Source: Flavobacteriales bacterium (lineage in GTDB: Bacteria; Bacteroidota; Bacteroidia; Flavobacteriales; BACL11). From it: DNA of 64,000 nt. The stretch spans positions 5,010 through 69,009 of the forward strand of contig JABGSE010000041.1 in NCBI GenBank assembly GCA_018647945.1. The letters are read 5' to 3'. The position numbers were made by a program, and so were the translations under genes. The notes under the pieces are model-generated. The model saw nothing but the letters and a program-made list of their open reading frames with translations, made no database searches and was not told where the DNA came from. Positions 60,240-60,545 of this stretch are shown piece by piece (position 1 is the first letter of the stretch; every line of letters starts with the position of its first letter).

Positions 60240-60545
60240 ATGATAAAAAAACTACTATTCTATCTAATCATTATAAGTTTTAATTTCAGTTCTTTTTCTC
60301 AATCTTACAATGATGGACTAAATGATGATTTTGAACCTAAAGGAGTGAGTATTGAAAATTATGAAATTTACATTTATAGTAGGTGGGGAGATGAAGTTTT
60401 TTACTCTGATAATATTGATTACCATTGGGATGGAGGAAAAGGAGTTTCCGGAAGTTATGGATATGTCATCAATATTGTAGATAAATTAGGGGAATTTCAT
60501 CAGGTAAAAGGAAATGTACTTTTAGAAAAAATTGTATTATTGTAA
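60240..60545 (+). CDS. 101-aa protein consisting only of a signal peptide and a type-B T9SS C-terminal domain (no cargo domain)
   Basis: MIKKLLFYLIIISFNFSSFSQ is followed by SYNDGLNDDFEPKGVSIENYEIYIYSRWGDEVFYSDNIDYHWDGG...GSYGYVINIVD...VKGNVLLEK. This aligns with the CTDs of the 31178 and 51459 proteins. The ATG is 1 nt after the upstream stop. Confidence 0.6.
   Translation: MIKKLLFYLIIISFNFSSFSQSYNDGLNDDFEPKGVSIENYEIYIYSRWGDEVFYSDNIDYHWDGGKGVSGSYGYVINIVDKLGEFHQVKGNVLLEKIVLL

What the first reader, a model, noticed from the sequence alone, without database searches (positions are those of the whole stretch)
60240..60545. Intact ORF encoding only a signal peptide plus a type-B T9SS sorting domain
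Seen: in the 101-aa protein, the residues after the predicted signal peptide (..FSSFSQ) start directly with SYNDGLNDDFEPKG..IYIYSRWGDEVF..YHWDGG..GSYGYVI..VKGNVLL. This is collinear with the C-terminal ~85 aa of the 31178 and 51459 proteins. The gene starts 1 nt after the stop of the protease-adhesin gene. Inference: there are two competing readings. (a) It is an in-frame deletion remnant of a third tandem adhesin, comparable to the decayed copy at 49296-49776. (b) It is a maintained cargo-less CTD that occupies, primes or regulates the type-B export or anchoring site, for example by pairing with a PorP/SprF-like protein. The intact frame and tight coupling are what distinguish it from the 49.3 kb remnant.
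Basis: partly seen in the sequence, partly recalled or inferred. Interest (0 to 1): 0.6.

Follow-up and report, generated by a model that had tools for sequence, protein, structure and literature searches.

The report
Deletion relic of an adhesin gene
The 101-codon gene is the leftover of a roughly 1,400-codon cell-surface adhesin gene that lost its whole middle in one in-frame deletion, so it is an ordinary piece of recent gene decay and probably not a purpose-built "cargo-less" secretion signal.

Summary
ORF 60240-60545 (+) is intact. It encodes a signal peptide, then most of a type-B T9SS C-terminal domain (CTD), and starts 1 nt after the upstream stop.

Its origin is now clear. A related MAG (L014) has the same gene order: 51459-orthologue, then gene X, then DUF6252, PRTase and SKI. 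There X is a 1,407-aa type-B-CTD adhesin. The window ORF equals its first 26 residues joined to its last ~70. The join lies at a 5-nt microhomology (GATGG).

The closest sister lineage (L011/L012) carries a different in-frame deletion of the same gene, joined at GATGAA. That deletion removes half of the CTD, so the CTD is not what is being kept.

The window copy also shows these signs of relaxed constraint:
- It lacks the hY[IV]PNxFxPN start found in every intact CTD aligned.
- It has lost the ancestral stop (TAA to AAA, adding 5 aa).
- Since the deletion it has gained 3 nonsynonymous and 0 synonymous changes, about 7 times the dN of its neighbours (Fisher P = 0.012).

Reading (a), an in-frame deletion remnant, is supported. 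Reading (b), a maintained cargo-less CTD, is not. In passing, an unrelated family of 106-128-aa proteins with a signal peptide plus a complete type-B CTD (P0020-like) turned up in marine metagenomes.

The parts
60240..60545 (+). Relic ORF (101 aa): the in-frame fusion of the 5' end and the 3' end of an ancestral ~1,400-codon type-B-CTD adhesin gene.
   Evidence: ORF listing. Collinear with both ends of L014:3752-7975. tblastn of the L014 protein residues 1336-1407 against window 60312-60527 gives 64% identity, E = 9e-26.
60240..60299 (+). Signal peptide (residues 1-20, MIKKLLFYLIIISFNFSSFS). The predicted SPase I cut lies before Q21.
   Evidence: Read from the sequence. It is collinear with the signal peptides of L014 (..ISILFS|QSYSDG) and P0010 (..SLLFA|QSYNDG). 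Gln at +1 fits the Bacteroidetes Q-rule (PMC5837995). No predictor was run.
60300..60317 (+). The first six residues of the ancestral mature adhesin (QSYNDG). The deletion junction microhomology GATGG lies at 60312-60316.
   Evidence: Codon-level comparison. The N-side is AAT GAT GGA in the window (continuing CCA ATT in L011, CCT ATC in L014). The C-side in L014 is GGA GAT GGT AGA AAT GAT.
60318..60527 (+). Retained part of the type-B CTD (residues 27-96, LNDDFEPKG...GNVLLE). The four-strand beta core is kept, and the hY[IV]PNxFxPN segment that precedes it is missing.
   Evidence: Pfam CHU_C profile positions 11-75 of 86. Alignment with 8 intact CTDs. The AF2 model has strands 38-46, 52-56, 71-81 and 86-98, with 10-residue block mean pLDDT of 74-92 across that region.
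60528..60530 (+). AAA codon where the ancestral stop TAA stood. Its loss adds KIVLL, and the ORF now ends at TAA 60543-60545.
   Evidence: L011, L012, L013 and L014 all have TAA here.
60531..60557 (+). Conserved spacer upstream of the DUF6252 gene (AATTGTATTATTGTAAAAA...), now partly read as the relic's tail. It may be a regulatory element for the downstream operon (inference).
   Evidence: The core is identical in the window, L011, L013 and L014 although the flanking coding sequence has diverged.
60558..61516 (+). Downstream DUF6252 lipoprotein gene (60558-61016) and phosphoribosyltransferase gene (61016-61516). They are the conserved partners of the ancestral adhesin gene.
   Evidence: Pfam. 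The same pair follows the full-length adhesin in L014 and L017.
56135..60238 (+). Upstream M12B-type metalloprotease with 11 SprB repeats and a type-A CTD. It is absent at this position in L014.
   Evidence: Pfam and NCBIfam. In L014 the 51459-orthologue is followed by a 43-nt spacer and then the full-length adhesin.
49296..49776 (+). A second, older relic of the same kind. It has a signal peptide and the start of a PKD-like domain (49296-49568, ending in a stop). A frame-shifted CTD part follows (49570-49776) with an internal stop at 49741-49743.
   Evidence: Three-frame translation and tblastn.

Best explanation
The ORF is a young gene relic.

**Shown.** The ancestor carried a ~1,400-aa secreted adhesin here: signal peptide, N-terminal SYNDGPI..VKLR domain, SprB/Ig/PKD repeats, then a type-B T9SS CTD. 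It lay directly upstream of a DUF6252 lipoprotein gene and a phosphoribosyltransferase gene. In the window's lineage about 1,309 codons (about 3.9 kb) were removed, by L014 numbering. The join lies between two in-frame GATGG repeats, one just after the signal peptide (..SYNDG) and one in the CTD's GDG motif.

**Inferred.** The short direct repeat points to replication slippage or illegitimate recombination, most simply as a single event. Because the deletion is in-frame, the native start codon, signal peptide and CTD tail still form an ORF. If transcribed, most likely by read-through from the protease gene 1 nt upstream, it would yield an ~81-aa periplasmic peptide beginning at Gln21. That peptide would lack the first conserved CTD segment and all the sequence upstream of the CTD. 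Published work finds that type-B signals need this upstream sequence. The peptide is therefore most likely not an efficient T9SS substrate and has no function maintained by selection. The frame may have been favoured, or simply tolerated, because an in-frame deletion is not polar on the downstream DUF6252-PRTase genes.
For: 1. **Synteny.** L014 (MAG SAT77) has the order 51459-orthologue, 1,407-aa gene, DUF6252, PRTase, SKI(-). L017 has a 1,439-aa homologue followed by a DUF6252-like gene and PRTase.
2. **Collinearity.** Window residues 1-26 match the N-terminus of L014 and P0010 (FSQSY[NS]DG). Residues 27-96 match their C-terminus at 64% identity, E = 9e-26.
3. **Junction.** The join lies at a 5-nt direct repeat, GATGG.
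4. **A second deletion.** L011, L012 and P0156 keep N-terminal residues 1-44 (..PITLDVKLREVQGNFADTDE; 21 of 26 post-signal-peptide residues match L014). These are joined at GATGAA to the last 46 residues. This removes the FEPKG..IYIYSRWG half of the CTD, and no CHU_C or TIGR04131 hit remains. Each lineage retains sequence the other lacks, so at least one deletion occurred separately in each after they split (flank dS 0.04-0.10).
5. **Lost stop.** The ancestral stop was lost only in the window clade.
6. **Evolution since the deletion.** Among contigs sharing the window junction there are 3 SNPs, all nonsynonymous (S72G, I79V, V93I), and none synonymous. The relic's dN is 0.012. Pooled neighbours have dN 0.002 and dS 0.005. 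Fisher P = 0.012 against the neighbours' dN. Against the neutral (neighbour dS) rate, Poisson P = 0.11.
7. **No conserved family.** An exhaustive search of 1.84 billion representatives found 4,745 CTD hits. Only P0003, the sister relic, aligns over the N-terminus.
8. **A second relic.** A more decayed relic with the same ends-retained pattern lies at 49296-49776.
9. **Literature.** Type-B signals span 150-235 aa, and five motifs in the last 100 aa are each required for SprB-CTD secretion (PMC12618676).
Against: - The ORF is still open and the four-strand CTD core is predicted confidently. Residual export or binding to a PorP/SprF-like shuttle cannot be excluded.
- Both deletions are in-frame and both keep the native start and the region around the ancestral stop. 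The chance of both being in-frame is about 1 in 9, which could hint at selection on the frame.
- The three post-deletion substitutions are conservative (S/G, I/V, V/I).
- Window versus L011 over 72 shared codons gives omega 0.33, but it is not significantly below 1 (P = 0.07).
- Window versus L013 CTD gives omega 0.16 (P = 2e-4). This reflects purifying selection, but most of that path probably predates the deletion, and the 5' end of L013 is unreadable.
- The post-deletion counts are very small.
Confidence: 0.85

Rival explanations
1. Maintained cargo-less type-B CTD. The mini-protein is exported and occupies, primes or regulates a PorP/SprF-like shuttle or anchoring site. It would have been exapted from the deletion product.
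For: - The ORF is intact with a signal peptide.
- The four-strand CTD core is predicted with 10-residue block mean pLDDT of 74-92.
- The CHU_C match is above Pfam's threshold.
- The post-deletion substitutions are conservative.
- Type-B substrates and their shuttles appear to be stoichiometric, so a decoy could in principle titrate a shuttle (PMC12618676).
- An unrelated family of short proteins with a signal peptide and a complete type-B CTD exists (P0020-like).
Against: - The sister lineage destroyed the CTD while keeping the ORF.
- The hY[IV]PNxFxPN segment, present in all intact CTDs aligned, is missing.
- The native C-terminus is extended by 5 aa.
- The mature product is only about 81 aa, against the 150-235 aa reported as needed.
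- The relic's dN is about 7 times that of its neighbours.
- No orthologue with this architecture lies outside one shallow clade.
- None of the 26 window ORFs scanned against Pfam is PorP/SprF-like.
Confidence: 0.07
2. Relic by origin, but the open frame itself is under selection. Translation from the native start to near the native stop prevents polarity, or provides coupling, for the downstream DUF6252-PRTase operon. The peptide would be a by-product.
For: - Two separate deletions are both in-frame, and both retain the native start and the last 46 codons or more.
- The relic's stop lies 12 nt before the DUF6252 ATG.
- The spacer AATTGTATTATTGTAAAAA is invariant across the window, L011, L013 and L014.
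- No terminator-like site lies between the genes.
Against: - Two in-frame events of three possible frames each is only a 1-in-9 coincidence.
- The conserved spacer could hold the downstream genes' own promoter, which would make upstream translation irrelevant.
- The 49.3-kb relic decayed to frameshift and stop.
- No expression data exist.
Confidence: 0.15
3. Assembly artefact: a repeat-rich adhesin gene collapsed during metagenome assembly.
For: The ancestral gene is repeat-rich. Some related contigs are visibly defective (L013 has a poly-G 5' end, L016 is chimeric).
Against: The same junction occurs in 16 contigs from about 14 samples built with different assemblers, with three haplotypes. 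The junction lies between non-repeat sequences (signal peptide end and CTD start) that share only 5 nt.
Confidence: 0.01

Closest known systems
T9SS type-B C-terminal sorting domain proteins (TIGR04131 / Pfam CHU_C; for example SprB and Fjoh_3952 of Flavobacterium johnsoniae, PG1035 of Porphyromonas gingivalis)
   Same: N-terminal Sec signal peptide. C-terminal region homologous to CHU_C, with the GDG-like/ND.FEP, IYxRWG, WDG, G.Y.Y and G.v.L elements and a predicted four-strand sheet.
   Different: There is no passenger domain. The first conserved CTD segment is missing. Five extra residues follow the normal C-terminus. No PorP/SprF-like gene is nearby. The mature product is far shorter than the 150-235-aa signals shown to work experimentally (PMC12618676).
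Full-length adhesin family represented by L014:3752-7975 (1,407 aa) and P0010 (1,439 aa)
   Same: Same locus. Same signal peptide plus QSY[NS]DG start. Same CTD (64% identity). Same downstream DUF6252-PRTase genes.
   Different: About 1,309 internal codons are missing: the N-terminal domain and the SprB, Ig_7 and PKD repeats.
Internal-deletion pseudogenes or gene remnants formed at short direct repeats (a general bacterial genome-decay process)
   Same: Both ends of the parent gene are kept and the junction lies at a 5-6-nt microhomology. There is parallel loss in a sister lineage, and a further decayed example in the same window (49296-49776).
   Different: The reading frame is still open and the start and signal peptide are intact, so gene callers annotate it as a hypothetical protein.
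P0020-like short proteins with a signal peptide and type-B CTD only (106-128 aa; found here in marine metagenomes, no published description found)
   Same: The architecture is a signal peptide followed almost directly by a type-B CTD. They come from low-GC (~30%) marine Bacteroidota contigs. One copy (L018) also follows a gene with a type-A-CTD-like tail.
   Different: P0020-like proteins keep the complete CTD, including LYIPNxFxPN, and end at the normal C-terminus. They recur in several contexts and samples at 52-76% identity. Their signal peptide and linker (MKKLLLILLCLPMIGFGQDSDTSS) are unrelated to the window ORF.

Membership tests
T9SS type-B CTD protein (PF13585 CHU_C / TIGR04131) | Profile match above the curated threshold | tested here: inconclusive
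   Pfam CHU_C scores 39.9 bits against a gathering score of 27, so it passes. TIGR04131 scores 24.9 bits against a cutoff of 35, so it fails. The intact 51459 CTD (25.0) and L014 CTD (29.8) also fail TIGR04131.
T9SS type-B CTD protein (PF13585 CHU_C / TIGR04131) | Complete domain, including the N-terminal hY[IV]PNxFxPN segment | tested here: not met
   The match starts at profile position 11 of 86. In the alignment with 8 intact CTDs this segment is replaced by signal-peptide-derived FNFSSFSQSY.
T9SS type-B CTD protein (PF13585 CHU_C / TIGR04131) | The domain ends at the protein's C-terminus | tested here: not met
   Five residues (KIVLL) follow the position where all relatives and all intact CTDs aligned end. 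The cause is TAA to AAA.
T9SS type-B CTD protein (PF13585 CHU_C / TIGR04131) | N-terminal Sec signal peptide | tested here: met
   It has an n-region (KK), a 12-residue hydrophobic core, and SFS|Q. It is collinear with the signal peptides of the L014 and P0010 full-length proteins. Gln at +1 fits the Q-rule (PMC5837995). This was judged by inspection and homology only, without a predictor.
T9SS type-B CTD protein (PF13585 CHU_C / TIGR04131) | Passenger (cargo) region between the signal peptide and the CTD, and a signal region of 150-235 aa | tested here: not met
   Only six residues (QSYNDG) lie between them, and the mature product is about 81 aa. The length requirement comes from PMC12618676.
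T9SS type-B CTD protein (PF13585 CHU_C / TIGR04131) | Cognate PorP/SprF-like shuttle gene adjacent (orphan substrates do exist) | tested here: not met
   The downstream gene is a DUF6252 lipoprotein. None of the 26 window ORFs scanned against Pfam is PorP/SprF-like. The rest of the genome was not examined.
T9SS type-B CTD protein (PF13585 CHU_C / TIGR04131) | T9SS- and shuttle-dependent secretion | not testable with these tools
   This needs expression and secretion assays.
Gene relic produced by internal deletion | Full-length orthologue at the syntenic position in relatives | tested here: met
   L014:3752-7975 (1,407 aa) has conserved genes on both sides. L017 P0010 (1,439 aa) has the conserved downstream pair.
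Gene relic produced by internal deletion | Both ends collinear with the parent gene and a definable junction | tested here: met
   Residues 1-26 and 27-96 map to L014 residues 1-28 and 1338-1407. The junction is GATGG.
Gene relic produced by internal deletion | Relaxed selection after the event | tested here: inconclusive
   There are 3 nonsynonymous and 0 synonymous changes. The relic's dN is 0.012 against 0.002 in neighbours (Fisher P = 0.012), and this is compatible with the neutral rate (P = 0.11). The ancestral stop is lost. The counts are very small.
Gene relic produced by internal deletion | Disrupted reading frame | tested here: not met
   The frame is open in all 16 contigs. The deletion is a multiple of three.
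P0020-like mini proteins (signal peptide plus complete type-B CTD) | Shared signal peptide/linker and a complete CTD | tested here: not met
   In the exhaustive search only P0003 aligns with the window ORF's N-terminus. The P0020-family signal peptide and linker differ, and their CTD is complete.

The most novel reading that the evidence does not exclude
Internal in-frame deletions of large type-B-CTD adhesin genes may be the route by which real cargo-less type-B CTD mini-proteins arise, such as the P0020-like family seen. The window ORF would then be an early intermediate. It would still be exported and able to occupy a stoichiometric PorP/SprF-like shuttle as a decoy. A weaker version is that the two parallel in-frame deletions reflect selection to keep the frame open for downstream expression.
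Probability: 0.06. Interest if true: 0.6.

Novelty: already known. Interest (0 to 1): 0.2.

Why it matters
The main value is for annotation. A 101-aa "hypothetical protein" that passes Pfam's CHU_C threshold would be counted as a T9SS substrate, although it is a decay product. The locus also gives a clean example of reductive evolution. Two sister populations of a low-GC marine Flavobacteriales lineage lost the body of the same adhesin gene through different microhomology-mediated in-frame deletions, and the same window holds an older relic of the same type. It does not point to a new T9SS regulatory mechanism. The P0020-like family found in passing is the better place to test the idea of a cargo-less CTD.

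Tried and rejected
- **Metagenome scan with the ORF.** 201 pattern matches, but none was confirmed. It added no relatives.
- **L013 and L016.** I hoped L013 (86% identical CTD) and L016 (P0032) would show further junction types. Their 5' parts are poly-G or chimeric low-coverage sequence, so I drew no conclusion about whether those lineages hold a full-length gene or a relic.
- **TIGR04131 sub-threshold score as evidence of decay.** Rejected, because intact CTDs of this lineage also score below the cutoff.
- **dN/dS, window versus L011.** Underpowered (5 synonymous, 7 nonsynonymous), and part of that path predates the deletions.
- **dN/dS, window versus L013.** It shows purifying selection, but it cannot be assigned to the time after the deletion.
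- **Promoter and terminator scan.** Promoter-like sites were no more frequent than in shuffles, and there were no terminators. The tool also does not model Bacteroidota promoters. A by-eye look for TAnnTTTG found only a one-mismatch candidate (TATTATTG) in the conserved spacer.
- **"11-nt insertion" in the L011/L012 protease gene.** It proved to be a masked run of N.
- **Motifs A-E of Paillat et al.** They are defined only in figures, so I could not map them residue by residue.
- **Derivation of the upstream protease/SprB gene from the deleted adhesin body.** Rejected. Similarity is only 28-35%, at repeat-domain level, and the relic's signal peptide lies downstream of that gene.

Full report
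**1. The observation**

ORF 60240-60545 (+) is real. It runs ATG to TAA and encodes 101 aa. The upstream gene's stop is at 60236-60238, one base follows, and then the ATG.

Residues 24-82 match Pfam CHU_C, the type-B T9SS sorting domain. The score is 39.9 bits against a gathering score of 27, E = 4.7e-10, covering profile positions 11-75 of 86. NCBIfam TIGR04131 gives 24.9 bits, below its cutoff of 35. The intact CTDs of the 51459 protein (25.0) and of the L014 orthologue (29.8) also fall below that cutoff, so this says nothing about decay.

BLASTP gives 32% identity to the CTD of the 51459 protein and 36% to that of the 31178 protein. tblastn finds 40% to the 49.3-kb relic.

Two details need correcting. 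The upstream protease/SprB-repeat protein ends in a type-A CTD, not a type-B one (Por_Secre_tail 61.9 bits, TIGR04183 61.8 bits). Collinearity covers about 70-75 residues, not about 85.

**2. Where the window comes from, and whether the ORF is an artefact**

The identical protein is encoded on more than 20 contigs of marine Flavobacteriales MAGs and metagenomes, for example GCA_018698465.1. Three further protein variants exist. In total, 16 contigs from about 14 samples and several assemblers share the same 306-nt gene, in three haplotypes. Assembly collapse is excluded.

**3. Origin**

I searched representative genomes with the downstream DUF6252 protein. This recovered a more distant relative, L014 (MAG SAT77; DUF6252 59% identical).

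Its gene order is 51459-orthologue, a 43-nt spacer, a 1,407-aa gene, DUF6252, PRTase and SKI(-). The 1,407-aa protein has SprB, Ig_7 and PKD domains and a complete CHU_C domain (52.5 bits, profile positions 3-86 of 86).

- Its N-terminus is MDFQKALLSCILLISSISILFSQSYSDGPISVDIKLREVQGNFAPTDEALLG...
- Its C-terminus is ...YVPxTFSPNGDGRNDNFEPQGVGIESFEIYIYNRWGDEVFYSDNFDIFWDGGEGIAGTYTYIISVVDKIGVFHKKNGFILIE*.

The window ORF is residues 1-26 (signal peptide plus QSYNDG) joined to the stretch that follows GDG. tblastn of L014 residues 1336-1407 against window 60312-60527 gives 64% identity, E = 9e-26.

At the codon level, the N-side reads AAT GAT GGA and the C-side of the parent reads GGA GAT GGT AGA AAT GAT. 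The junction therefore lies in a 5-nt direct repeat, GATGG. In L014 numbering about 1,309 codons are missing.

A second full-length homologue is P0010 (1,439 aa), with N-terminus MKKILFILLFPSLLFAQSYNDGPIEIQVKLR... It is likewise followed by a DUF6252-like gene and PRTase in L017.

**4. A different deletion in the sister lineage**

The nearest relatives are L011 (GCA_054186805.1) and L012, with flank dS of 0.04-0.10. At the same place they carry a 90-aa ORF, P0003. A 95-aa variant, P0156, also exists.

P0003 keeps N-terminal residues 1-44. After the signal peptide, 21 of 26 residues are identical to L014. This part is joined directly to the last 46 residues (DEVFYSDN...LLE). The junction is GATGAA.

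This removes the FEPKG..IYIYSRWG half of the CTD, and no CHU_C or TIGR04131 match remains.

The window keeps sequence that L011 lacks, and L011 keeps sequence that the window lacks. Neither can derive from the other. At least one deletion therefore occurred separately in each lineage after they split. The CTD is not what is being conserved.

**5. Signs of relaxed constraint in the window copy**

(a) Every intact type-B CTD I aligned has hY[IV]PNxFxPN before the GDGxND motif. These include L014, P0010, P0004, 51459, 31178, P0020 and P0177. The relic has signal-peptide-derived residues in that place.

(b) All relatives stop right after ..LLE or ..LIE with TAA. The window clade has AAA there and reads five more codons (KIVLL) into the conserved spacer before DUF6252.

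(c) Within the clade that shares the window's junction, every difference arose after the deletion. There the relic has 3 SNPs, all nonsynonymous (S72G, I79V, V93I), and none synonymous.

| Measure | Relic | Pooled neighbours (3,243 codons) |
|---|---|---|
| dN | 0.012 | 0.002 |
| dS | 0 (0 of 59 sites) | 0.005 |

Three or more nonsynonymous changes are unlikely at the neighbours' dN rate (Poisson P = 0.009; Fisher P = 0.012). They are compatible with the neutral, neighbour-dS rate (P = 0.11). The counts are small and all three changes are conservative, so this favours neutrality without proving it.

Two other comparisons do not settle the matter. Window versus L011 over the 72 shared codons gives omega 0.33, not significantly below 1 (P = 0.07). 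Window versus L013 CTD gives omega 0.16 (P = 2e-4). Most of that longer path (dS 0.42) must predate the deletions, and the 5' end of L013 is unreadable.

**6. What the product could do**

The signal peptide (MIKKLLFYLIIISFNFSSFS|Q) is collinear with those of the full-length proteins. It exposes Gln at +1, as expected for Bacteroidota SPase I substrates (PMC5837995). The mature product would be about 81 aa.

AlphaFold2, run with a 20-sequence alignment, predicts four strands: 38-46, 52-56, 71-81 and 86-98. Ten-residue block mean pLDDT is 74-92 across that region, and the overall mean is 74.7. This corresponds to the four-strand sheet described for type-B CTDs. A low-confidence strand is built from residues 18-22, which signal-peptide cleavage would cut through.

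Paillat et al. 2025 (PMC12618676) report three relevant points:
- Functional type-B signals span 150-235 aa and extend beyond the conserved domain.
- Five motifs in the last 100 aa are each required for secretion of an SprB-CTD fusion.
- Substrates need cognate PorP/SprF-like shuttles that are present in low, apparently stoichiometric amounts.

The relic lacks everything upstream of the core and part of the first conserved stretch. No PorP/SprF-like gene is adjacent. None was found among the 26 window ORFs scanned against Pfam. Efficient secretion is therefore unlikely. This is an inference, not a test.

**7. Is there a conserved family of such minis?**

The exhaustive HMMER search of 1.84 billion representatives gave 4,745 hits. 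Only P0003 aligns across the N-terminus, and all the others match the CTD alone. The window ORF has no orthologues beyond its shallow clade.

One short hit was unexpected. P0020 (113 aa) has a signal peptide, the linker DSDTSS, and a complete CTD. It belongs to a set of about a dozen proteins of 106-128 aa with the same architecture and 52-76% identity. They occur on short marine contigs in at least three different gene contexts.

In those genomes, unrelated neighbouring genes start with the same stereotyped signal peptide (MKKLLLILLCLP...). The shared N-terminus alone therefore does not prove orthology. This family is unrelated to the window ORF, but it is the better candidate for a real cargo-less type-B CTD protein.

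**8. Context that helps explain the decay**

- In L014 the adhesin gene has its own upstream spacer. In the window and in L011, the protease/SprB/type-A-CTD gene fills the space between the 51459 gene and the relic's ATG. Its start overlaps the stop of the 51459 gene, and its own stop lies 1 nt before the relic's ATG.
- The tight coupling is therefore the ancestral start codon abutted by another gene, and not evidence of co-function. Whether that arrangement displaced the adhesin's promoter and triggered the decay is speculation.
- The spacer AATTGTATTATTGTAAAAA before DUF6252 is invariant in the window, L011, L013 and L014. It may be regulatory.
- This, together with the fact that in-frame deletions are non-polar, offers a mundane reason why both deletions spared the 3' end and kept the frame. 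I give this rival 0.15.
- The same window holds an older relic of the same ends-retained type at 49296-49776. It is now frame-shifted and carries an internal stop.

**9. Verdict**

Reading (a) is supported and reading (b) is not. The feature is a recent, in-frame, microhomology-mediated internal deletion relic of a type-B-CTD adhesin gene. This is an ordinary kind of gene decay, worth noting mainly as an annotation trap and as a neat case of parallel loss. Interest is 0.2.

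Noticed in passing
L018:177-518, L025:2542-2925, L026:532-918, L027:29-415, L028:98-484 (proteins P0020, P0157, P0160-P0162, P0164, P0165, P0168-P0170, P0172-P0174): About a dozen 106-128-aa proteins consist of a signal peptide (MKKLLLILLCLPMIGFGQ), the linker DSDTSS and a complete type-B CTD. They are 52-76% identical, and some carry a 15-aa insert. They occur in at least three gene contexts on short marine contigs of ~30% GC. 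They may be a real cargo-less type-B CTD family, and I found no published description.
   Followed up: partly
L025:2927-4309, L026:923-1729: In those same contigs, unrelated neighbouring genes begin with a near-identical signal peptide (MKKLLLILLCLP...). The neighbours are a metalloprotease with a type-A CTD and a SASA-family lipoprotein. Such stereotyped signal-peptide DNA could serve as a recombination substrate.
   Followed up: no
window 49296-49776 (+): A second relic of a type-B-CTD gene. It has a signal peptide and the start of a PKD-like domain ending in a stop (49296-49568). A frame-shifted CTD part follows (49570-49776) with an internal stop at 49741-49743. It shows the same ends-retained pattern at a later stage of decay.
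   Followed up: partly
window 60696-60995 (within the DUF6252 gene 60558-61016): This segment is only 51-82% identical in nucleotides between the window and L011, while the flanks are 95-100% identical. For the whole gene dS is 0.49, dN is 0.195 and amino-acid identity is 71%. The DUF6252 lipoprotein appears to be a recombination or diversification hotspot.
   Followed up: partly
L011 ~6862-6864 (window ~57100) and L012 ~3708-3710 (window ~58843): The protease/SprB/type-A-CTD gene carries a different premature stop in each of two sister-lineage assemblies: TAT to TAG in L011, and a TGA in L012. This is either polymorphic pseudogenisation or MAG consensus error. The apparent 11-nt insertion near its start is a masked run of N.
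   Followed up: partly
window 56135-60238 compared with L014:3709-3751: The 1,367-aa protease/SprB-repeat/type-A-CTD gene is absent at this position in L014. In the window it is packed tightly between the 51459 gene (its start overlaps that gene's stop at 56135) and the relic (1-nt gap). I did not determine whether it was gained in the window's clade or lost in L014.
   Followed up: no
window 60531-60557; L011, L013 and L014 upstream of the DUF6252 ATG: The spacer AATTGTATTATTGTAAAAA is invariant across lineages whose flanking coding DNA has diverged. It contains TATTATTG, one mismatch from the Bacteroidota -7 motif TAnnTTTG (the motif is recalled from memory).
   Followed up: partly
P0014 (128 aa): A chimeric ORF. 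Its N-terminus is a DUF6252-like lipoprotein start (MKKLLFICLAIAVIFAACKKKEE...SCKIDGVDFSDNNPVA). This is fused to the C-terminal part of a CTD of this adhesin family, which suggests another rearrangement at an equivalent locus.
   Followed up: no
window 62156-62231 and 62294-62377 (+): tRNA-Lys(TTT) and tRNA-Leu(GAG) lie between the shikimate kinase gene and the redoxin-like gene. The 47-aa ORF listed at 62271-62414 (-) overlaps the tRNA-Leu and is spurious.
   Followed up: yes
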